Positions 1,865-57,794 of a stretch of DNA of 57,794 nt are shown in pieces. Origin of the DNA: a virus (taxonomy: Duplodnaviria; Caudoviricetes); the IMG/VR virus record IMGVR_UViG_3300036846_000250, positions 1 through 57,794 of that record; one strand, written 5' to 3'. The stretch's first letter is position 1. Each line of letters starts with the position of its first letter. The position numbers were made by a program, and so were the translations under genes. A model generated the notes under the pieces. The model worked only from the letters and a program-made list of their open reading frames with translations. It did no database searches and was not told the DNA's origin.

Positions 1865-1936
1865 TTTGTGTGTGTATGTTTGCGACGCAATTTGCAGCGT
1901 CGTTTGCACGGCCATTCGGCGGTGCGTGGTTTGTTT

Positions 1937-2012
1937 TGGTCTGTCTCATCAGCGTGCGATGACCAGTGCGCACGAACGACGGAAAAACTTAATTTCCCTC
2001 CGTCGTTTCGAC
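1937..2012 (-). ncRNA. Type II hammerhead ribozyme (HHR-1)
   Basis: Minus strand: GUC-GAA-A-CGACGGAGGGA/UUUUUCCGUCG-U-U^-CGUGCG/CGCACG-CUGAUGA-GAC; loop I UGGUC pairs with 3' tail GACCA; predicted cleavage between 1975 and 1974. Confidence 0.9.
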
Positions 2013-2372
2013 TTCATTTCGACGATCCACATGTTGGCTGGCGCGTTTCTTTTTCTGGTGGCCACACGCAAGGGCAGAGCCGTGATAACCCACGGCGGCA
2101 CAGCTGTTACAGTGATCGAGTCAGCGATGGTGATCTTTTTCGGTTGGCCACCGCTGCAAGTGCATTCTCAAACGTTCGGTTATTTCTTCAATCAGGCGCG
2201 TGGAATAAATCTCACTCTGCTGACTGCGAATCTTTAGGCGGGTCGGACGCCAATGGTATCAAAGAACTGACACGAGAATCACGCCGGATAAGACAAAAAC
2301 AACAGGAAAAACAAAAAAAACAGAAAAAGATTTGGCGGTGCCTGTTTTCCCCTGCGTGCGCCCCTCCGATGG

Positions 2373-4042: not shown

Positions 4043-5948
4043 CGAGTATCTAGCGACCAAAAAGTTCTGCTGGTCGTTCGTTTCCGTCGTTAGGCCACCG
4101 TCGAAAATCACGCTTTCCGAGTGGGCGGACAAGTATCGCGTGCTCTCGTCTGAGAGTTCGGCCGAACCTGGTGCGTGGGTCACAGCGAAAGCGCCCTACG
4201 AAAAAGAGATCATGGACGCGATCAGTGATCCGTTCGTGCAGCGCGTGGCGATACAAAAAGCTGCGCAGCTCGGAATCACTGACGCGGCGATCTTGAATCC
4301 GGTCGGCTACTTCATGGACGCCGATCCGTGTCCGATCTTGGTCGTGCAGCCGACAATCGAAATGGCTGAGACGTTCTCGACCGACAGGCTTGCGCCGATG
4401 CTGCGCGACAGCAAGCGGCTGCGGCACAAAGTATCGGACGCGCGTTCACGCGACAGTTCAAACACGCTGCGCCGGAAAGCGTTCAAGGGCGGATTCGTGG
4501 CGCTCGGCGGCGCGAACAGCGCGGCGTCACTCTCTGGCCGACCGGTGCGAGCGGTGCTACTGGACGACGTCGACCGATATCCGGCGAGTGCCGGAACGGA
4601 GGGCAATCCGCTGCAACTGGCAATCGCTCGCACGACCGCATTTTGGAATCGCAAAATTGTGATCGTGTCGTCACCCGGCATCCGAGGCATATCGCACATC
4701 GAGCGTGAAATGGAGGACTCGACGCAGGAACACTGGTATCTGCCCTGTCCGGAGTGCGAGTGCATGCAAATTCTCGACTGGGACAGGATTCGATTTGCCG
4801 ATATGACGCATCGTTGCCTCGAGTGCGAAAAGTATTTCGAGAAATTTCTCTGGCTGGCTGGCGAGGGCGAGTGGCGAGCGCACAAGCCGTTCAACGAGCG
4901 CGGCGAAAAGATTTTGAAACGCGGCTTCTACCTGAGCGGCCTCTACAATCCTTGGATCGAATGGGAAATTCTTGTCGACGAGTTCATCAAGGCGGTCCGC
5001 GCCAACGAGGAGGGCGACATCGAGCCGTTGAAAGCGTTTCGCAATACGCGGCTCGGACTGCTGCACGACGAGAGCGGGACAAAAGTCGAGATCGATCTTT
5101 ACGCCGAGCGGCGCGAGGACTACGACGCGGAAATTCCCGACGGTGTTCTGGCGTTGACTGCTGGCGTGGACGTGGGCGAATACGCGTTGAACTACGAGGT
5201 CGTCGGCTGGGGCATAGGGCGTGAATCGTGGGGCATCGAATACGGTTTGATCGACGGCGATCCGCGCGAGGCCGACGTGTGGGACATACTTGACGAAGTG
5301 CTTTATCGCCAGACGTGGACGACGAGCGACGACAAAAAAATGCGCTGCCGGAAAATCGCTGTCGACAGTGGTTACGCTGCGGACTTCGTCTACACCTACA
5401 CCAAGATGCGTCAGCCGCGTTGCATTGCGATTAAAGGCATGGGCGGACTGGGCCGACCGTTCATCATCGGTGCTGGCTCATACACCAAAGGCAATCGCGC
5501 TCGGTTGCAGCCGATAGGCGTCGACAACGGCAAAGAGGAAATTGTCAATCGCCTGCTGGTGTCCAAGGTGGGGGCTGGTTACTGTCACTTTCCACGACTG
5601 AAAAATGGCGAAGCGACGCGCGGCTACGACGAGGAATATTTCAAAGGGCTGACGGCGGAGCGCCGGATCGTGAAAGCGAAACTCGGTTTCCGGACATACA
5701 TCTGGACGAAACGATTGTCGCAGCGGAACGAGCCATTCGACTGCCGGAACTACGCGCTAGCTGCGCTGGCGATGCCGTCGAGCGGCATTCATCTTGACAC
5801 GATGAGACGCGACATTTTCAGCGTGGCGGAAACAAAGAACGAGTCGACGGTGTTCGGCGCACAGGCGCGATCAATGACAGCGCCGCCTCCGCCGTCGCAG
5901 GGCGAGTCGCGCGGCGGTTTTGGTGCGCAGAATCGGCCACTGACGTGA
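4005..5948 (+). CDS. terL: Terminase large subunit, lambda GpA family
   Basis: LSEWADKYR, KAAQLG (Walker A variant), LLDDVDRYP, CPEC, AGVDV, AVDSG, RNEPFDCRNYA. Confidence 0.95.
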   Translation: MEATATTASLRRDEYLATKKFCWSFVSVVRPPSKITLSEWADKYRVLSSESSAEPGAWVTAKAPYEKEIMDAISDPFVQRVAIQKAAQLGITDAAILNPVGYFMDADPCPILVVQPTIEMAETFSTDRLAPMLRDSKRLRHKVSDARSRDSSNTLRRKAFKGGFVALGGANSAASLSGRPVRAVLLDDVDRYPASAGTEGNPLQLAIARTTAFWNRKIVIVSSPGIRGISHIEREMEDSTQEHWYLPCPECECMQILDWDRIRFADMTHRCLECEKYFEKFLWLAGEGEWRAHKPFNERGEKILKRGFYLSGLYNPWIEWEILVDEFIKAVRANEEGDIEPLKAFRNTRLGLLHDESGTKVEIDLYAERREDYDAEIPDGVLALTAGVDVGEYALNYEVVGWGIGRESWGIEYGLIDGDPREADVWDILDEVLYRQTWTTSDDKKMRCRKIAVDSGYAADFVYTYTKMRQPRCIAIKGMGGLGRPFIIGAGSYTKGNRARLQPIGVDNGKEEIVNRLLVSKVGAGYCHFPRLKNGEATRGYDEEYFKGLTAERRIVKAKLGFRTYIWTKRLSQRNEPFDCRNYALAALAMPSSGIHLDTMRRDIFSVAETKNESTVFGAQARSMTAPPPPSQGESRGGFGAQNRPLT

Positions 5949-7208: not shown

Positions 7209-7244
7209 CCGCCGTCGGGAGTAATCTCGGCGGCGGTTTTTTTT
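7209..7244 (+). terminator. Intrinsic terminator
   Basis: CCGCCGTCGGGA-GTAA-TCTCGGCGGCGG followed by T8. Confidence 0.85.
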
Positions 7245-7287
7245 GGTTGCCTGCACGGTCTACAGACCAGCAGGCGAATCGCGCAAA

Positions 7288-7390
7288 CGCGCGAGGATTG
7301 CCGTAAACACGTTTTGATTTCTCGGGAGTATGAGGAGTCCAGCGGTGCAATAAAAACGCGATATACGCGAACGTGGCGCGTTTTTGAGCG
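7288..7390 (+). repeat. ~100-bp bipartite element (family B), copy 1
   Basis: GAGGATTGC...CACGTTTT-N37-AAAACGCGATATACGCG. Confidence 0.7.
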
Positions 7391-8154: not shown

Positions 8155-9902
8155 CAGCGACGCTCAACGGCAACGGCGAATTGAAACGATTGCCGCGCGG
8201 CATCCTGCTGGGCGCGGACGGCGAGATCATGCGACCGACAAACGCGAGCGCGGCGTTGCTGCCGCTCTACGGCGGCTTGGGCGGTGGGACTGGCTACGGG
8301 AACTACGGTGCGAATGTCACGAAAAATTCTTTGCTCGGCTGGCTCTGGCGCGGTGGCGATGCGGACGCCGACATAGGTCTGAACATCGACGTGCTTCGGC
8401 AGCGTTCACGCGACGCCTTCATGGGCATTCCACTCGCGGCTGGCGCTGTCGAAACGCTCGATACAAACGTGATCGGCGAAGGCTTGTATGCCGCTCCGAA
8501 TCCGGACGGCAAGGTGCTCGGACTCTCCGACGACAAGACGGCGGAACTGGCCAAGGAATTGACCGACAAATTCGACTGGTGGGCGACCGATCCCTGCGAG
8601 TGCGACTGGGAAAAGAAACACAATTTCTATGTGCAACAGCACATCGCGTTTCAGTCGATGCTGCTCAGTGGCGACTGTCCGGTCTTGTTTCCTCTGAAAC
8701 CTCGACCGAACACGATGTTCGATTTGCGCCTGCGCATCTTGGAGGCCGACCGGATTCGCAATCCGAATCTCGGCAATCTGACGAAAAACATTTACAACGG
8801 TGTCGAGATCGATAACGACGGCGAGCTGTTGGCATACCACATTTGGGACAGGCACCCACTGGCGTTGACGCAGTTCTGGTTCGCGCCTCCGATCCCGAAC
8901 GTGACGCGCGTCGAGCCGTTCGGCGCACAGAGCGGACGCCGGAACATGGTGCTCTTGATGCGTCCGGAACGACCGGAGCAACGGCGCGGTGCGCCTATCC
9001 TGAGCGTGTGCTTGGAACTGTTGAAGCAACAAGGGCGCTACGTGGACGCCACTGTGCTCGGCGCGGTTATCCAAAGTTATTTCACGGCGTTCATCACATC
9101 CGAATTTCCTGATCCGACGCTGCTGGATTCGCTGCTGACCGACGAGCAAAAGAAACAGATCGCCGACTTGAATCCTTACAACGTGCAGCTCGGACCCGGC
9201 GTGGTGAATTTCATGCGACCTGGCCACGAAGTGAAATTCTCAAACCCGACGCAGCCGACAGCGACGTTCGGAGAGTTCTCGATCGCGTGCGCCAAGTTCG
9301 TTGGTTCTGCGACCGGAATCCCCTACGAGGTTTTGCTCAAACAGTTCAACGCCAGCTACAGCGCGAGCCGCGCGGCGCTGCTGGATTTCTGGCGGCGCGT
9401 GCGCAAGTATCGCGCCTTGATGGTCGATGGTATGTGCCAGCCGACCTACGAGGAATGGATGGCCGACGCGGTCTACTTGAATCGCCTCGACAATTTCAAG
9501 GGCAATTTTGACGATCCGTTTATTCGACGCGCCCTGTGCCGGTGCGTGTGGACTGGCAATTCTGCTGGCTCGTTAGACCCGCAAAAGGAGGTCAGTGCTG
9601 CCGACCTGAAAGTGAAATGCGGCTTCTCGACCATCGAGCGTGAGTCGATGGAATTGAACGGCAGCAATTGGCGCGACAACGTCCGGCAGCAGGCGACCGA
9701 GAAAACGGAATTCGAGGACGCCGACTTGATCTTTCCGCCTGACAGACCGACGCAAATCAGGGAACAGGAAACGCCGACGACTGCCGGAGGCCAGCCGCCT
9801 GCGCCTGCGGTTCCGGCTGCTCCGAAGCCGAAAGGCCAGCCAGCGGCGCGACAGCGGCCGCATGAACTGGCCAGCGGCACAAGTGGGAGGTTTGAACGAT
9901 GA
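8151..9902 (+). CDS. Portal protein, lambda family
   Basis: LRQRSRD, LEADRI, NGVEID..GELLAYHI, RPEQRRGAP, IPYEVL..FNASYSASRAAL, LDPQKE. Confidence 0.95.
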   Translation: MTATLNGNGELKRLPRGILLGADGEIMRPTNASAALLPLYGGLGGGTGYGNYGANVTKNSLLGWLWRGGDADADIGLNIDVLRQRSRDAFMGIPLAAGAVETLDTNVIGEGLYAAPNPDGKVLGLSDDKTAELAKELTDKFDWWATDPCECDWEKKHNFYVQQHIAFQSMLLSGDCPVLFPLKPRPNTMFDLRLRILEADRIRNPNLGNLTKNIYNGVEIDNDGELLAYHIWDRHPLALTQFWFAPPIPNVTRVEPFGAQSGRRNMVLLMRPERPEQRRGAPILSVCLELLKQQGRYVDATVLGAVIQSYFTAFITSEFPDPTLLDSLLTDEQKKQIADLNPYNVQLGPGVVNFMRPGHEVKFSNPTQPTATFGEFSIACAKFVGSATGIPYEVLLKQFNASYSASRAALLDFWRRVRKYRALMVDGMCQPTYEEWMADAVYLNRLDNFKGNFDDPFIRRALCRCVWTGNSAGSLDPQKEVSAADLKVKCGFSTIERESMELNGSNWRDNVRQQATEKTEFEDADLIFPPDRPTQIREQETPTTAGGQPPAPAVPAAPKPKGQPAARQRPHELASGTSGRFER

Positions 9903-11086
9903 ACGCACTACCAACAGACTACTACAAATTCACTTGCGAAGCTGGCGACGAGCCGACTGTCGCGGAACTTTTGATCTTCGACGTCATTGGCAACTGGGAG
10001 GAAATCGGCGAAGTCTCAGCGAAAGCGTTCGCACGCGACTTGGCTGCGCTGCCGAAAAGCGTGAAGCGCCTCGACCTGCACATCAACAGCCCCGGCGGTT
10101 CGATCTTCGATGCACAGGCGATTTACTCGCGGCTGGCCGATCATGCGAGCACGAAAAACGTCTACATCGACGGACTGGCCGCGAGCGCGGCATCTGTCAT
10201 TGCGATGGTCGGACACAAAATTTACATGCGGTCGAATGCGACCATGATGATGCATTTGCCCTCCGGATTCTCGATCGGCAATGCAGACGACATGCGCAAA
10301 ATGGCCTCCGCTCTGGACACGCTGACGGAGTCGATGATCAATGTCTACGCTCGGCGAAGCGGCTTGCAGCGTGACGAAATTCGCGGCCTGCTCGCAGCCG
10401 AAAGCTGGTTCTCGCCCGAGCAGGCCGTGAACAAAGGTTTTGCCGACGAAGTGCGCGGCGTGGTCAAGGCTGCGGCCTCGTTAGGCAACAAGCGATTTTC
10501 TTTCAACGGAGCGACTTTCAATCTGTCTCGGTTCTCCAACATTCCGGCGTTTGCCGATCAACAACCAACACGAGGAACACAAACCATGAACACACAAGCA
10601 CCGCCTTCGGGCGATCCACCGCCGACGCCGCCTGCGAGTCCGCCGACGCCGCCTGCGAATCCACCAACTCCACCGAATCCGCCGCCGAACGATCCGCCGC
10701 CGCCGAACACAGCGCCTGCGCCTGCTGCGCCTGCTGCGCCTGCGGCTGCTGCGGAGACTGACGTGCAACGCGGCGTCCGGCAGGAACGCGAGCGCGTGAC
10801 AGCGTTGCAGGCGCTCGATAGGCCAGCGACGCACACGATCATCGAGGCCGCGATCAAAGACGGAATGTCTGTCGCGGACGTGACCGCCGCGTGCATCGAC
10901 GCGATGGACAAAGCGTCGAGGCAAAACGCGAGGCGAGCGGACGCCAGCGTGCTTACGAGAGTTCCTGGCAGCACGACCGAACTTGTGCAGGAGGATGAAA
11001 ACGATTTCGGTGCGCTGCTGACACGCAAGGTGAAAGCCTGCGTGAAATCGCGCGGCCACAGGTCAGCTTTGAACAGTCGAAACTAA
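9899..11086 (+). CDS. ClpP-type head maturation protease fused to scaffold via Pro-rich linker
   Basis: HINSPGGS, IDGLAASAASVI, MMMH, ESWFSPEQAVNKGFAD; C-terminal QERERV..LQAL. Confidence 0.92.
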   Translation: MNALPTDYYKFTCEAGDEPTVAELLIFDVIGNWEEIGEVSAKAFARDLAALPKSVKRLDLHINSPGGSIFDAQAIYSRLADHASTKNVYIDGLAASAASVIAMVGHKIYMRSNATMMMHLPSGFSIGNADDMRKMASALDTLTESMINVYARRSGLQRDEIRGLLAAESWFSPEQAVNKGFADEVRGVVKAAASLGNKRFSFNGATFNLSRFSNIPAFADQQPTRGTQTMNTQAPPSGDPPPTPPASPPTPPANPPTPPNPPPNDPPPPNTAPAPAAPAAPAAAAETDVQRGVRQERERVTALQALDRPATHTIIEAAIKDGMSVADVTAACIDAMDKASRQNARRADASVLTRVPGSTTELVQEDENDFGALLTRKVKACVKSRGHRSALNSRN

Positions 11087-35545: not shown

Positions 35546-35567
35546 CTGCTCAAACGCGCGTAAAAAC

Positions 35568-39511: not shown

Positions 39512-39537
39512 AAGGTATCTGCAAACGGTGATAAGCT
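39512..39537 (+). repeat. 28-bp palindromic element, copy 11 (divergent)
   Basis: AAGGTATCTGCAAACGGTGATAAGCT. Confidence 0.85.
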
Positions 39538-52377: not shown

Positions 52378-52491
52378 GCTTTCCTCCTTGGTTTGTGTTT
52401 TTATGTTTGAAAAGCCCTCTGATGCGTAAAAACGTTCGCAAAAAAAGGGGCGACAGACGACCGAACGCTGGTCTGTCAGCAGCGGTGCGGG

Positions 52492-55499: not shown

Positions 55500-55727
55500 T
55501 TATTCTTTTTGCTCGGTGACGGTGACGACGTAGGCGCGTCCGAGCGACAGATCGCGCGCCACATTTTCGGTGATTACATCGCCGACGTGATACTCGTCAC
55601 GGCGCGACATGGTCGACACAGCGACTGCGCCGACCAGCTTCGCAATGCGAAACGTCCGAGTCTTTTTGTCGGACGCGCCGTCGGTGCGACTCTGCTGTGC
55701 GAGGATGATTTGGACGGTGTTTTTCAT
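55500..55727 (-). CDS. Hypothetical protein
   Basis: GGAG RBS. Confidence 0.6.
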   Translation of the reverse strand: MKNTVQIILAQQSRTDGASDKKTRTFRIAKLVGAVAVSTMSRRDEYHVGDVITENVARDLSLGRAYVVTVTEQKE

Positions 55728-55826
55728 GTATGTATTTTTCTCCGGTTGCTTGCCTGCTTCATTGCAAACAAGAACGATGCGGCGAACGGTTTTGCTAGGC
55801 GCGTTCGCCGCACGAGTTCTTCCCTG

Positions 55827-56543
55827 CTATTTCGCCTGCGGCTTGTCGCCGCCGATCCAGCCTTTGACCAGATCCATCACACGCCGACGCTGCGGCGGTG
55901 CGAAGCGGTTAATCCATTGCGTCCACTTTTTGTAGACTTGATCCTCCCACGGCACTTCGGTCTTGCGTGGCTTTTTCTTGGTGGGAGTTTTCGATGCGGC
56001 TTTGCCGAGCTTCGACTTGCCGCTGATCACATCCTCCAGTCCGCCGGACTTGCGAACTTTCTCGGCCTGCTCGCCTTTGCGCTGGCTGACGCCAGCGGTC
56101 TTGGCGACTTGAGCAGCGACGCTGCCCTTGCCGTCCAGTTTCGCTTTGCCTTTGAACGTGCCAGCTTTCGACTGGCGCTCTTTCGCATCTTTTTCCAGAG
56201 CGGGGCCACGCATCTTGGATACGATTGCGACGCGCTGGTCGTCGCTCATGTGCCGTCGGAACAGATTGCGCGACATGATTTCATTCGCAATTTGTTCTTC
56301 GGTGCCGTCGAAAATTTCGAACTTGTCGTCCGGAACTTCGACGTCTGCCTCGTATGCTAATTTCCAGCGCGTTGCGCCGTCGAGGATTGTGCTACGATCT
56401 TTGGTGACAAGGATCGGAACTTTGATGCCATTCTGCTTGATATCCTCTCGCATTTCATCGAGTTCGCTCTTAGGCATCGGAGCGATCTGGCCGAACATTC
56501 GGCACAGCGGATGTATCTGCATCACTTTTTGGGATTTAGCCAT
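55827..56543 (-). CDS. ParB-like protein with HTH
   Basis: HP, DIKQNG..VPI, ILDGATR..LA, SRNL.RRHMS, HTH VAAQVAKTAGVSQR; AGGAGG RBS. Confidence 0.8.
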   Translation of the reverse strand: MAKSQKVMQIHPLCRMFGQIAPMPKSELDEMREDIKQNGIKVPILVTKDRSTILDGATRWKLAYEADVEVPDDKFEIFDGTEEQIANEIMSRNLFRRHMSDDQRVAIVSKMRGPALEKDAKERQSKAGTFKGKAKLDGKGSVAAQVAKTAGVSQRKGEQAEKVRKSGGLEDVISGKSKLGKAASKTPTKKKPRKTEVPWEDQVYKKWTQWINRFAPPQRRRVMDLVKGWIGGDKPQAK

Positions 56544-56581
56544 TTTGTGATTTACCTCCTATGGTTTGTCGTTTGTATGTG

Positions 56582-56679
56582 GGTTCTCTGCTCATCAGTG
56601 CAGGCGCGAACCGTTTGACGCCTACAGATTGCGCGAAGCTTATCTGCATTTGGTGATAAGCTTCAAGCGCAATTTCGCA
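56582..56679 (-). ncRNA. Type II hammerhead ribozyme (HHR-2) whose stem III contains the 28-bp palindrome
   Basis: Minus strand: UGC-GAA-A-UUGCGC..[repeat]..GCGCAA-U-C^-UGUAGGCG/CGCCUGCA-CUGAUGA-GCA; loop I GGUUC pairs with tail GAACC; predicted cleavage between 56627 and 56626. Confidence 0.9.
56636..56663 (+). repeat. 28-bp palindromic element, copy 16 (within HHR-2)
   Basis: AAGCTTATCTGCATTTGGTGATAAGCTT. Confidence 0.95.
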
Positions 56680-56693
56680 AATCAAATTTTTGG

Positions 56694-56987
56694 CTACTGC
56701 TGCATGGCGGCGATGGTTTCCGGCGACGGCTTTTTTATTCGCCGCCACACGGATTGTGCGACGGTCTCATTCCGTTTCTCGGCGAAGTGGAACATCGTTT
56801 GCAGACGCGCCTTGCTGGCCATGATCTTCGTCTGCGCTTTGTCGAGTTCCAAGCGTTCGCGTTGAATGAACTCGATCGAGTTGCGGTCTTGTTTGGTGCG
56901 GAACGTGGACTCGACCGACATTAGTTTGATCATCGCCGCTTCGAGCGAACGCTCGGCTTTGATGATTGCTTCGAGTGCTGATTTCAT
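56694..56987 (-). CDS. Coiled-coil hypothetical protein
   Basis: AAGGAGG RBS, MKSALEAII... Confidence 0.65.
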   Translation of the reverse strand: MKSALEAIIKAERSLEAAMIKLMSVESTFRTKQDRNSIEFIQRERLELDKAQTKIMASKARLQTMFHFAEKRNETVAQSVWRRIKKPSPETIAAMQQ

Positions 56988-57210
56988 TACTGCTTCCTCC
57001 TTGGTGGTTGTGTGTGTGTTTTTCTGACGACGCATGGATGCGAACGAGCCGCACCGATGACGGTATATTTTTTGCCTGTCTCGCGCTCACGAATCATCAA
57101 AGCGATTCGTTGCTTGAAGTCGGCAACCGACTCTGGCTGTGTGTATGTGTTTTTCATGGATTACTCCGCACGCCCGACAGCCACAGGCGCTGTCGGGCGG
57201 TTCGGAACGA

Positions 57211-57528
57211 TCACAGACTGATTGTCGGGCAGTCGACGACCAGACCGCCGCAGTATTCACATTGCGACGTGACCAATCGTTCGCCTGCTCGACCGGATGG
57301 ACGCGCGGCAATATCGCGGAAGCGATGCCGACGCGTTTGCCACTTGAATTTCGGCTCTGGCGCGTTCGGACAGATCGCCGTGCTATTCCATCCGCCGACG
57401 GCAATGATGGTTTTTTGCTGCTTTTGCAATTTGCGAAGCGTGGCTGCAAGATGGTGTCTGCCGACTCGATCCATCGCTGTCGCTGCTTCGGCCAACGTGT
57501 ATAACGGATGTTTCGTTTTCTTTTTCAT
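57211..57528 (-). CDS. Hypothetical protein with Zn-ribbon C-terminus
   Basis: MKKKTKHP...CEYCGG; GGAGG RBS; ATGA coupling. Confidence 0.55.
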   Translation of the reverse strand: MKKKTKHPLYTLAEAATAMDRVGRHHLAATLRKLQKQQKTIIAVGGWNSTAICPNAPEPKFKWQTRRHRFRDIAARPSGRAGERLVTSQCEYCGGLVVDCPTISL

Positions 57529-57794
57529 CGATAGGTTTGCCTGTAGCCTCCGTGTGTGGTGGTTAGGCCGACCAGCTTCGGCTGTTCGCCATTCGGCCAT
57601 ACTGGTGCGCCGCGCTTGAAGTCTGTCGGCTCGACAAACGACATGCTGGAATACACCAGCAATTGCGACGGCTTGGACGCGGCAGGGACTTCGGTCTGCG
57701 CAAGGCGAATTGCCATTGCAGGGACTTTGTCGACGCCGAAACCGTGTTCGCACACGGCGATGTAATAAGGTTTCTCGGTGTAATAAGTGACGAG
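57525..57794 (-). CDS. C-terminal part of the junction-spanning hypothetical protein (start at 220)
   Basis: Continuous frame across the 127-bp overlap. Confidence 0.7.
   Translation of the reverse strand, partial: LVTYYTEKPYYIAVCEHGFGVDKVPAMAIRLAQTEVPAASKPSQLLVYSSMSFVEPTDFKRGAPVWPNGEQPKLVGLTTTHGGYRQTYR
57668..57794. repeat. Terminal direct repeat (identical to 1-127)
   Basis: Direct sequence identity. Confidence 0.9.

What the first reader, a model, noticed from the sequence alone, without database searches (positions are those of the whole stretch)
56582..56679. Hammerhead ribozyme with the genome-wide 28-bp palindrome in stem III, in the leader of a ParB-HTH gene
Seen: the minus strand has the full type II hammerhead core (stem II UGC/GCA, GAAA, stem III, AUC^ cleavage triplet, 8-bp stem I, CUGAUGA). 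It also has a 5-bp loop-I/3'-tail pseudoknot (GGUUC/GAACC). The distal part of stem III is an intact copy of the 16-copy palindrome. The ribozyme ends ~40 nt before the ATG of a ParB-like HTH gene. Established: type II hammerheads with such pseudoknots self-cleave, and stem III tolerates insertions. Inference: one locus is both a DNA site and a catalytic RNA. It could be an autoregulatory switch in which the ParB-HTH or another binder recognises the palindrome while cleavage sets the 5' end and stability of its own mRNA. I know of no described example of this arrangement.
Basis: partly seen in the sequence, partly recalled or inferred. Interest (0 to 1): 0.9.

Follow-up and report, generated by a model that had tools for sequence, protein, structure and literature searches.

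The report
Phage hammerhead ribozyme carrying a repeat palindrome
A soil phage has a genuine-looking self-cutting hammerhead RNA just before a ParB-like gene; one of its helices is lengthened by a copy of the phage's dispersed palindrome, which related phages' ribozymes lack, so the palindrome looks like a tolerated passenger, not a switch.

Summary
The minus strand at 56582-56681 has a complete type II hammerhead: the full core, three helices, a 5-bp loop-I/3'-tail pseudoknot, and a predicted cut at 56627/56626. It ends 38 nt before the ParB-like ATG.

Rfam scores it 28.8 bits, below the cut-off of 37. Long inserts in the stem III and stem I loops account for at least part of the shortfall.

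The distal part of stem III is one of 16 co-oriented copies of the palindrome.

Comparative evidence:
- Three related phages have a homologous hammerhead in the same ParB leader without the palindrome. Stems I and III covary.
- The closest relative keeps the palindrome there but has no hammerhead.
- Four phages share a two-ribozyme layout: HHR-1 before ArdC and HHR-2 before ParB. This matches the clustered prophage hammerheads described in 2011.

Most likely reading: a cis-cleaving mRNA-processing ribozyme, with a lineage-specific palindrome nested where the helix tolerates it. The proposed ParB/palindrome autoregulatory switch gets no comparative support, but it was not tested biochemically.

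Earlier notes of this scan report palindrome-in-stem-III hammerheads in other soil phage genomes. I did not check those notes.

The parts
56582..56681 (-). HHR-2: complete type II hammerhead motif (100 nt)
   Evidence: Rfam RF02276 at 28.8 bits, model positions 1-66 of 66. Unconstrained fold gives the three-way junction. Parsed.
56677..56681 (-). Stem II 3' strand (UUUGC). It pairs with 56587-56591 (GCAGA). This is the open helix of a type II hammerhead.
56674..56676 (-). Core G12-A13-A14
56667..56673 (-). Stem III proximal 5' strand (A15.1 plus UUGCGC). It pairs with 56628-56634.
56635..56664 (.). Copy of the dispersed palindrome (10-bp arms, asymmetric 10-nt centre). It forms the distal part of stem III. 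It is preceded on the RNA by a UU bulge (56665-56666).
56628..56634 (-). Stem III proximal 3' strand (GCGCAA plus U16.1)
56627..56627 (-). C17. Predicted scissile bond lies between 56627 and 56626.
   Evidence: sequence and model alignment; cleavage itself is inferred
56599..56626 (-). Stem I hairpin (9 bp) with a 10-nt loop I that contains GGUUC
56592..56598 (-). Core CUGAUGA (C3-A9)
56582..56591 (-). Stem II 5' strand GCAGA (56587-56591), then tail GAACC (56582-56586), which is complementary to loop I (pseudoknot)
   Evidence: Loops and tails are printed. The pairing is my reading of those strings.
55827..56543 (-). ParB-like gene (238 aa): ParB N-terminal domain plus an HTH-like region. The AGGAGG Shine-Dalgarno sequence is at 56555-56560.
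56694..57035 (-). Upstream gene (113 aa, no family). Its stop codon lies 12 nt before the ribozyme. A longer homologue precedes ParB in L011.
   Evidence: The similarity to L011 I read by eye.
1935..2013 (-). HHR-1: a second type II hammerhead without a palindrome, 19 nt upstream of the ArdC gene (968-1915). With HHR-2 it brackets the ArdC gene block across the circular junction.
   Evidence: Rfam 36.8 bits. ArdC: Pfam ArdcN 1.2e-32 and PHROG anti-restriction 7e-73. 127-bp exact terminal repeat.

Best explanation
HHR-2 is a genuine cis-acting type II hammerhead in the leftward (minus-strand) early transcript of a 57.8-kb lambda-like soil phage. That transcript probably starts near 2.3 kb and runs across the circular junction. 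Together with HHR-1 (1935-2013), HHR-2 brackets a short gene block: ArdC, a DUF6011 protein, and two or three small genes.

Cleavage after C56627 would separate that block from the ParB-like gene and the helicase and recombination genes behind it. The upstream RNA would end in the long stem III hairpin with a 2',3'-cyclic phosphate. The ParB mRNA would start with a 5'-OH and the stem I hairpin, 83 nt before its AUG. This would uncouple the stability of the two messages.

The palindrome is one copy of a dispersed, mostly intercistronic dyad repeat that this phage family carries. In this lineage it lies nested in the end of stem III. That is a place where a self-complementary insert only lengthens the helix. 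It is carried there without being needed for the ribozyme and without gating it.

What is shown: the motif, its conservation in position, the covariation, and the absence of the palindrome from homologous ribozymes. What is inferred: cleavage, the polycistronic transcript, and the effect on mRNA stability.
For: 1. Canonical core, three helices and pseudoknot.

2. Homologous hammerheads lie in the same ParB leader in three phages whose ParB is only 49-61% identical. L013 scores 35.5 bits, L015 34.6 bits and L014 31.7 bits, with per-genome E-values of 3.7e-7 to 3.5e-6.

3. Each of the three near-complete relatives has two strong matches, HHR-1 and HHR-2, 2.6-3.1 kb apart. G001 has a third, weak one (15.3 bits, E 0.069). 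The same search found no match over the cut-off in 14 control genomes.

4. Covariation over 9 ribozymes (4 HHR-2, 5 HHR-1). Stem I positions 1-6 are standard pairs in 54 of 54 cells. Stem III positions 1-5 are standard pairs in 45 of 45 cells. There are 2-4 pair types at every position except the invariant A15.1-U16.1.

5. Loop-I/3'-tail complementarity of 4-6 nt in 9 of 9, in four sequence versions. This is my reading of the strings printed.

6. Stem III hairpins are 17-32 nt (-9.0 to -15.3 kcal/mol) in the 8 other ribozymes, against 46 nt (-21.6 kcal/mol) here. None of the 8 holds a palindrome.

7. Palindrome positions differ between close relatives. L012 has copies where the window has none, and the reverse. 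They fall in gaps between homologous blocks.

8. No sigma-70-like promoter was found in 55700-57794 (0 found; 1.1 expected). Terminator-like sites were no more frequent than in shuffles.

9. Perreault et al. 2011 describe type II hammerheads with this pseudoknot. They describe clusters that flank single genes or short blocks in prophages, including an anti-restriction gene (ardA), and in vitro and in vivo cleavage of such sets (PMC3088659, passages).
Against: 1. The score is below Rfam's cut-off. No cleavage or RNA-end data exist: no RNA run holds this DNA.

2. In a 301-nt context the predicted fold keeps stems I and III, but it replaces stem II with a longer-range helix.

3. Some relatives' copies deviate. 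L013 HHR-2 has no standard stem II pair. L015 HHR-2 has a U inserted in GAAA. L015 HHR-1 reads CAGAUGA. Selection for catalysis may therefore be relaxed in parts of the family.

4. The palindrome in this leader is kept in L012, with the same unusual TT flank in place of the usual GG, while both flanks are replaced. A 3028-nt contig of run X4 (about 87% alike) matches through the palindrome to 56667 and then diverges. This suggests the palindrome at this spot is itself under selection, so it may not be a neutral passenger.

5. Earlier notes of this scan report palindromes inside or next to hammerheads in several other phages (unchecked). If those cases are independent, that argues for a functional association.
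Confidence: 0.6

Rival explanations
1. Purposeful hairpin-then-cut unit. The palindromes are intercistronic RNA hairpins that cap the 3' ends of cistrons, in the way REP elements do. Placing one in stem III, the helix just 5' of the cut, is then adaptive: it gives the upstream ArdC-block message a stronger 3' hairpin. There is still no protein gating.
For: - The stem III hairpin is 46 nt and -21.6 kcal/mol, against at most -15.3 kcal/mol in relatives.
- At least 7 of 16 copies overlap the stop codon of the upstream ORF or lie within 6 nt of it: 5947, 13064, 17670, 20616, 22958, 31831 and 44607. This is my comparison of the ORF ends with the positions.
- The copy at 52491 is followed by a stem plus T-run (seen). 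The copy at 39512 follows a T-run.
- The dyad symmetry of the inner part is kept in relatives although its sequence changes.
- Scan notes describe hairpin-then-ribozyme layouts in other phages (unchecked).
Against: - The asymmetric centre has the same orientation on the DNA in both the rightward and the leftward gene blocks.
- The outer hexamers AGCTTA/TAAGCT are conserved in sequence across relatives at a fixed 14-nt spacing.
- Both features suggest recognition of DNA sequence and not only RNA pairing.
- Three homologous HHR-2 copies do without the palindrome.
Confidence: 0.17
2. The palindrome is an operator read as DNA, and perhaps as an RNA hairpin, by the ParB-like HTH protein or another binder. 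Binding would tune cleavage or the fate of the ParB mRNA, giving autoregulation.
For: - The repeat looks like a site for a dimeric protein: conserved outer half-sites 20 bp apart centre to centre and an A/T-rich centre. In L013 it is a perfect 26-bp palindrome.
- The ParB-like protein is the only HTH-type candidate I recognised. Pfam gave no DNA-binding family for the other 31 window ORFs scanned, 26 of them in the early leftward block or beside it.
- A palindrome is kept in or right after the ParB gene in several relatives: the L012 leader, and directly after the ParB stop in L013, L014 and L161.
Against: - 0 of 3 homologous HHR-2 copies carry the palindrome, and the L012 palindrome has no ribozyme. 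The two parts are separable.
- The HHR copy lacks the N-CC flank that 13 of the 15 copies aligned have.
- ParB/Noc-type sites known to me (recalled) are about 14-16 bp, not half-sites 20 bp apart.
- No binding test was possible.
Confidence: 0.08
3. HHR-2 is an inactive relic or a slow variant. The motif is inherited but no longer cleaves at a useful rate. The intergenic region then matters only for the palindrome.
For: - Sub-threshold Rfam score.
- Core or stem II lesions in relatives: L015 in both ribozymes, L013 in HHR-2.
- HHR-2 was replaced by another element in L012 and L011, and is absent from L016, L160 and L161.
- The X4 contig shows gaps placed inside the CUGAUGA stretch (table 4; the alignment is uncertain).
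Against: - The window's own copy has every core nucleotide, a 5-bp stem II, long stems I and III and the pseudoknot.
- The 3' segment from CUGAUGA to the GAACC tail is identical in L015, although ParB there is only 49% identical.
Confidence: 0.1

Closest known systems
Type II hammerhead ribozymes with a loop-I/3'-tail pseudoknot, clustered in prophage transcripts (Rfam RF02276; Perreault et al. 2011, PMC3088659, passages read)
   Same: Same core, same permutation (stems I and III capped, stem II open) and same pseudoknot. Same kind of context: several ribozymes flanking a short gene block in a phage, next to an anti-restriction gene (ardA there, ArdC here). The proposed role is also the same: cutting a long phage transcript into gene- or operon-length mRNAs.
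   Different: Stem III is lengthened to 46 nt by a copy of a genome-wide repeat, which pushes the score below Rfam's cut-off. The second ribozyme sits in the leader of a ParB-like gene. No cleavage has been shown for this one.
Dispersed dyad-symmetric repeats of phage genomes, such as the 17-bp repeat of Cluster O mycobacteriophages (Cresawn et al. 2015, PMC4351075, passages read)
   Same: Tens of copies of a short inverted repeat spread over the genome. Many are intergenic. The centre is A/T-rich. They are predicted to bind a dimeric protein, and their function is unknown.
   Different: Here the repeat is longer (28 bp, half-sites 20 bp apart). Its asymmetric centre has one orientation in all 16 copies, whereas the Cluster O paper found no meaningful orientation. 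One copy lies inside a ribozyme helix. In Cluster O the repeats were said not to take part in rearrangements. Here they lie at gaps between homologous blocks.
REP (repetitive extragenic palindromic) elements of enterobacteria (recalled, no call)
   Same: Imperfect palindromes placed after stop codons inside operons. They can form RNA hairpins that protect upstream mRNA, and they are also bound by proteins as DNA.
   Different: No RAYT/Y1 transposase was found in the ORFs I scanned. This is a phage genome, with far fewer copies.
KorB operator network of plasmid RK2 and Noc binding sites (recalled, no call)
   Same: A ParB-family HTH protein with many palindromic sites spread over a replicon.
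   Different: Those sites are 13-16 bp (recalled). No ParA partner or binding evidence was found here. Similarity of the protein to ParB/Noc is weak.

Membership tests
Hammerhead ribozyme, type II (Rfam RF02276) | Conserved core: C3-U4-G5-A6-N7-G8-A9 and G12-A13-A14 | tested here: met
   CUGAUGA at 56592-56598 and GAA at 56674-56676
Hammerhead ribozyme, type II (Rfam RF02276) | A15.1-U16.1 pair followed by a non-G residue 17 at the cleavage site | tested here: met
   A56673 pairs with U56628, followed by C56627
Hammerhead ribozyme, type II (Rfam RF02276) | Three helices around the core, with stems I and III closed by loops and stem II open | tested here: met
   The unconstrained fold of 126 nt gives this junction. 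In a 301-nt context stems I and III persist, but stem II is predicted to be replaced.
Hammerhead ribozyme, type II (Rfam RF02276) | Pseudoknot of 4 or more pairs between loop I and the nucleotides just 3' of stem II (Perreault 2011) | tested here: met
   GGUUC in loop I against GAACC at 56582-56586. Equivalent complementarity in 9 of 9 family ribozymes, in four versions (my reading).
Hammerhead ribozyme, type II (Rfam RF02276) | Score at or above Rfam's gathering cut-off (37 bits) | tested here: not met
   28.8 bits. The alignment shows inserts of 32 and 14 nt in the two loops. Four of the five relatives' ribozymes aligned, which have no palindrome, also score below the cut-off (30.3-35.5 bits). 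So do a sixth, not aligned there (L015 HHR-1, 33.6 bits), and the window's own HHR-1 (36.8 bits).
Hammerhead ribozyme, type II (Rfam RF02276) | Helices supported by compensatory changes in homologues | tested here: met
   Stem I positions 1-6 are standard pairs in 54 of 54 cells. Stem III positions 1-5 are standard pairs in 45 of 45 cells. There are 2-4 pair types per position (9 sequences, aligned by numbering outward from the core).
Hammerhead ribozyme, type II (Rfam RF02276) | Mg2+-dependent self-cleavage giving 2',3'-cyclic phosphate and 5'-OH ends | not testable with these tools
   No RNA run holds this DNA.
The phage's dispersed 28-bp palindrome family | 9-bp inverted arms AAGCTTATC/GATAAGCTT around the asymmetric 10-nt centre, in the common orientation | tested here: met
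   56635-56664 has both arms intact, and its centre is the same as in 5 other copies, in the same orientation.
The phage's dispersed 28-bp palindrome family | Conserved N-CC flank on the + strand 3' side | tested here: not met
   13 of the 15 copies aligned have it. The HHR copy and the copy at 35566 do not. The orthologous L012 copy shares the unusual flank.
Protein- or ligand-gated (allosteric) ribozyme | The sensing module co-occurs with the ribozyme in homologues | tested here: not met
   0 of 3 homologous HHR-2 copies and 0 of 5 HHR-1 copies hold a palindrome. The L012 palindrome has no ribozyme.
Protein- or ligand-gated (allosteric) ribozyme | A binder changes the cleavage rate | not testable with these tools
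   This needs biochemistry.

The most novel reading that the evidence does not exclude
The palindrome is a module read twice, and its place in stem III is selected. As DNA it would be the site of a phage dimeric binder, with the ParB-like HTH protein as the only recognised candidate. As RNA it would be the terminal hairpin of the upstream cleavage product. Binder occupancy or hairpin strength would then set how the early ArdC block and the ParB/replication block are uncoupled. If the other palindrome-in-hammerhead phages noted by this scan are independent cases, this would be a recurrent design for punctuating phage transcripts.
Probability: 0.1. Interest if true: 0.75.

Novelty: new member of a known kind. 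Interest (0 to 1): 0.4.

Why it matters
- It adds a small family of soil phages to the known clustered prophage hammerheads. Two related prophage-like loci lie in Verrucomicrobiota MAGs. In this family two type II hammerheads bracket an anti-restriction gene block.
- Five of the six relatives' ribozymes scored and both of the window's own fall below Rfam's cut-off, so standard annotation misses them.
- The nested palindrome is a natural experiment on how much a hammerhead's stem III tolerates.
- The comparison with relatives shows that ribozyme, palindrome and a third structured element are swapped as cassettes in one gene leader.
- If the palindrome proved to be functionally tied to cleavage, it would be a natural protein-responsive or 3'-end-capping hammerhead. 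The present evidence makes that unlikely.

Tried and rejected
- Rfam at gathering threshold: no match in the window. The hit appears only with E-value thresholds.
- blastn of 55800-57794 against the phage records: no match.
- Exact palindrome pattern in viral contigs: 0 stretches (the window's own record may be left out).
- Single-protein ParB scans found only 1 relative in viral contigs and 2 short contigs in metagenome contigs.
- The 17-nt 3' segment of HHR-2 in viral contigs gave the L015 phage and one chance match inside a coding region, which I read and rejected.
Of the 118 loci my script read, only 1 held a hammerhead at the match, and that was the L014 phage again. This route gave no new homologues.
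- MAFFT alignments of the ribozymes (A2, A3) were not structurally consistent. I therefore numbered pairs outward from the core by script instead. I built no covariance model.
- No RNA holder was listed for this DNA.
- Laying contigs of 4 DNA runs gave no read-end information. It showed only that one X4 contig diverges beyond 56667, and its letters could not be seen. Many short contigs stop at the palindrome, as expected for a repeat.
- I looked by eye for a sigma-70 promoter reading of the palindrome arms and rejected it, because the -10-like match is poor. The promoter scan found none in 55700-57794.
- An IHF-site or Fur-box reading of the arms was considered from memory and dropped as a poor fit.
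They may list hammerheads with long stem III inserts.
- None of the listed titles describes a dispersed repeat inside a hammerhead helix. Perreault's figure S8 legend concerns palindromic loop III in eukaryotic repeat hammerheads that may dimerise, which is a different matter.
Full report
WHAT THE WINDOW IS

The window is a complete virus record of 57,794 bp with an exact 127-bp terminal repeat. It encodes a lambda-type large terminase, a lambda-family portal and an E-type major capsid protein on the + strand.

A leftward block runs from about 2.0 kb across the junction down to about 39.8 kb. This block holds ArdC (968-1915; Pfam ArdcN 1.2e-32, PHROG anti-restriction 7e-73), a DUF6011 protein, small ORFs, the ParB-like gene (55827-56543), a helicase, an ERF recombinase and a PD-(D/E)XK nuclease.

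THE OBSERVATION

On the minus strand, 56582-56681 holds every element of a type II hammerhead:
- Stem II: UUUGC pairing with GCAGA.
- Core GAA.
- A15.1-U16.1 closing a 7-bp proximal stem III.
- A UU bulge.
- The palindrome as the distal 10 bp of stem III, with a 10-nt loop.
- C17 at 56627.
- A 9-bp stem I with a 10-nt loop.
- Core CUGAUGA.
- The tail GAACC, complementary to GGUUC in loop I.

Rfam's gathering scan finds nothing in the window. With E-value thresholds, RF02276 aligns end to end at 28.8 bits against a cut-off of 37. The E-value is 5.4e-4 locally and 0.088 over the whole window and all families. The alignment shows inserts of 32 nt and 14 nt in the two loops.

An unconstrained fold of 126 nt returns the three-way junction (z -3.07). 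In 301 nt, stems I and III persist, but stem II is predicted to be replaced by a longer-range helix. That caveat rests on prediction alone.

The palindrome has 13 copies with 3 or fewer mismatches, against none expected. There are 15 copies with 6 or fewer of 30 mismatches, each closer to the + orientation. A 16th variant copy lies at 39512.

A SECOND RIBOZYME AND A FAMILY LAYOUT

The whole-window scan also found a type II hammerhead at 1935-2013(-). It scores 36.8 bits, has no palindrome, and ends 19 nt before ArdC.

I searched the ParB-like protein (42 homologues) and a 26-sequence alignment of it against viral contigs. This gave one 9.2-kb contig (L012 = L001, ParB 85% identical) and four larger relatives: L013/G001 at 61%, L014/G002 at 54%, L015/G003 at 49% and L016/G004 at 46%.

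Scanning the whole records with RF02276 gave the following:
- G001, G002 and G003 each have two strong matches, 2.6-3.1 kb apart. One is an HHR-1 homologue. The other ends 25-40 nt before the ParB start.
- G001 has a further weak match (15.3 bits, E 0.069).
- G005 (L012) has HHR-1 only.
- G004 has none.
- The 14 control genomes had no match over the cut-off.

The HHR-2 homologues score 35.5, 34.6 and 31.7 bits. HHR-2 in the ParB leader is therefore inherited, not a chance motif.

Two of the HHR-2 homologues deviate. L013's has no standard stem II pair, and L015's has a U inserted in GAAA. L015's HHR-1 reads CAGAUGA.

COVARIATION

I numbered pairs outward from the core in the 9 ribozymes.
- Stem I positions 1-6 are standard pairs in 54 of 54 cells.
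- Stem III positions 1-5 are standard pairs in 45 of 45 cells.
- Every position has 2-4 pair types, except the invariant A15.1-U16.1.
- The loop I and tail strings printed there allow a 4-6 bp pseudoknot in 9 of 9, in four sequence versions (GGUUC/GAACC, CGGUU/AACCG, UGGUC/GACCA, UUGAUC/GAUCAA). That last point is my own reading of the strings.

IS THE PALINDROME PART OF THE RIBOZYME?

Stem III hairpins of the 8 other ribozymes are 17-32 nt (-9.0 to -15.3 kcal/mol), and none holds a palindrome. The window's is 46 nt and -21.6 kcal/mol.

I read 8 other ParB leaders (L011, L012, L013, L014, L015, L016, L160, L161). L010 was left out because it has only 47 nt upstream.
- 3 have HHR-2 without a palindrome.
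- 1 (L012) has the palindrome without a hammerhead.
- 4 have neither.
- None has both.

In L012 and L011 the place of HHR-2 is taken by a different conserved hairpin with a CCUAACAAA loop.

blastn shows that the window and L012 are homologous up to window 57012 and again from 56569. Between those points lies a non-homologous cassette in which only the palindrome is shared. That shared copy carries the same unusual TT flank, where 12 of the 13 copies shown in minus orientation have GG.

A contig in run X4 (about 87% alike) matches from ParB through the palindrome to 56667. It then has 568 other letters in place of 138.

So the palindrome, the ribozyme and the third element behave as exchangeable parts. 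Joints fall at or near the palindrome.

WHAT THE PALINDROME IS

Relatives carry the same kind of repeat. The outer hexamers AGCTTA and TAAGCT are conserved at a fixed 14-nt spacing. The inner part differs between phages but keeps its dyad symmetry. In L013 the repeat is a perfect 26-bp palindrome. L014 has 12-bp arms and L015 has 11-bp arms.

Copy positions are not conserved between close relatives. In the window the copies are mostly intercistronic, and at least 7 of 16 touch or nearly touch the stop codon of the upstream ORF.

The fixed DNA orientation of the asymmetric centre in both gene blocks, together with the conserved outer hexamers, points to recognition as DNA by a dimeric protein. 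The preserved dyad and the position after stop codons would also suit an RNA hairpin. I cannot decide between these.

The ParB-like protein has a ParB N-domain and a Noc-like match through its HTH region. It is the only DNA-binding candidate I recognised. The other 31 window ORFs scanned with Pfam showed no DNA-binding family, but many have no family at all.

Dispersed dyad repeats of unknown function are known in phages, for example in Cluster O mycobacteriophages (PMC4351075, passages).

MECHANISM

The best-supported reading is the one Perreault et al. proposed for clustered prophage hammerheads (PMC3088659, passages). On that reading the ribozymes cut a long phage transcript into shorter mRNAs.

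Here HHR-1 and HHR-2 would release the ArdC block. HHR-2 would leave the upstream RNA ending in the long stem III hairpin. It would give the ParB mRNA a 5'-OH end with the stem I hairpin, 83 nt before the AUG.

No sigma-70-like promoter was found between the two ribozymes. There was also no excess of terminator-like sites. This evidence is weak, because the host is unknown.

The palindrome sits where a self-complementary insert merely lengthens a helix that takes no part in the loop-I/tail tertiary contact. I rate tolerated nesting, with or without a modest benefit for 3'-end protection, well above a protein-gated switch.

EARLIER NOTES OF THE SCAN

Notes on this genome list the 16 palindrome copies and HHR-1. 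I confirmed both.

Notes on other genomes report hammerheads whose stem III is a genome-wide palindrome, and hairpin-then-ribozyme cassettes, in several soil and lake phages. Look-ups by place and by the ParB protein found no look-alike of this locus among them, so they are probably not close kin. I did not check them. If they are independent cases, they raise the odds of the adaptive hairpin-then-cut reading, and I have weighted the rivals accordingly.

HOST HINT

Two ParB relatives lie in MAG contigs labelled Verrucomicrobiae and Chthoniobacterales. The second has a bacterial RNase P RNA gene 3.5 kb upstream. Both contigs carry palindromes of the family but no hammerhead within 5 kb.

VERDICT

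This is a real but ordinary kind of ribozyme with an unusual passenger. The switch interpretation is not supported by the comparison with relatives. Biochemistry and a wider survey of relatives are still needed.

Noticed in passing
window 1935-2013 (-); L012:3875-3951; L013:6666-6744; L014:7212-7293; L015:7220-7293: A second type II hammerhead (HHR-1) lies directly upstream of the ArdC anti-restriction gene in the window and at the matching place in four relatives. Of these five, three fall below Rfam's cut-off (36.8, 33.6 and 30.3 bits).
   Followed up: yes
L015 (record G003): HHR-1 at 7220-7293 and HHR-2 at 9891-9961: Both ribozymes of this phage carry a core lesion. HHR-1 reads CAGAUGA instead of CUGAUGA. 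HHR-2 reads GAUAA instead of GAAA. L013's HHR-2 has no standard stem II pair. This may reflect decay or slow variants.
   Followed up: partly
L012:6357-6440 and L011:1283-1350; also L160 near 4975-4990: Where the window has HHR-2, L012 and L011 have a different conserved hairpin with a CCUAACAAA loop and compensatory stem changes, followed by a conserved CGCAAUUACGC stretch. L160 has GCGCCUAACAAG before its ParB start. No Rfam family matched L001 (the part of L012 holding this hairpin) at E up to 1, nor the L160 stretch at E up to 0.1. L011 was not scanned. Function unknown.
   Followed up: partly
window: 16 copies from 2372 to 56664; L012, L013, L014, L015, L160, L161: The palindrome family is shared across the phage group. 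The outer hexamers AGCTTA and TAAGCT are conserved at a fixed 14-nt spacing. The inner arms differ between phages but stay symmetric. Positions differ between close relatives. Several relatives have a copy directly after the ParB stop codon.
   Followed up: partly
window 5947, 13064, 17670, 20616, 22958, 31831, 44607: These palindrome copies overlap the stop codon of the upstream ORF or lie within 6 nt of it. In two of them the TAA stop is the first three bases of the repeat.
   Followed up: partly
window 5947, 35566, 39512: Three copies share a variant left arm (GGTATC in place of GCTTATC). The copy at 39512 also has its central four bases flipped relative to the others. L012 copies show a similar flip.
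   Followed up: no
window about 52440-52490 (-): A G+C-rich stem followed by a run of T, like an intrinsic terminator, lies directly downstream of the palindrome copy at 52491 in the direction of leftward transcription.
   Followed up: no
window 56569-57012 versus L012:6184-6449: This is a cassette swap between close relatives. The upstream small gene and the leader element differ completely, while the flanks are 76-82% identical. Only the 30-bp palindrome is shared inside the swapped part.
   Followed up: partly
L161:910-1445: A bacterial RNase P RNA gene (188.7 bits) lies 3.5 kb upstream of a ParB relative in a Chthoniobacterales MAG contig. This hints that the phage family is temperate in Verrucomicrobiota and may integrate near this RNA gene.
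   Followed up: no
window 56682-56687 and 56546-56551 (-): In the 301-nt fold, the stretch just 5' of the ribozyme (UGAUUU) is predicted to pair with AAAUCA, which lies between the Shine-Dalgarno sequence and the ParB AUG. Cleavage would detach that stretch from the ParB mRNA. This rests on prediction only.
   Followed up: no
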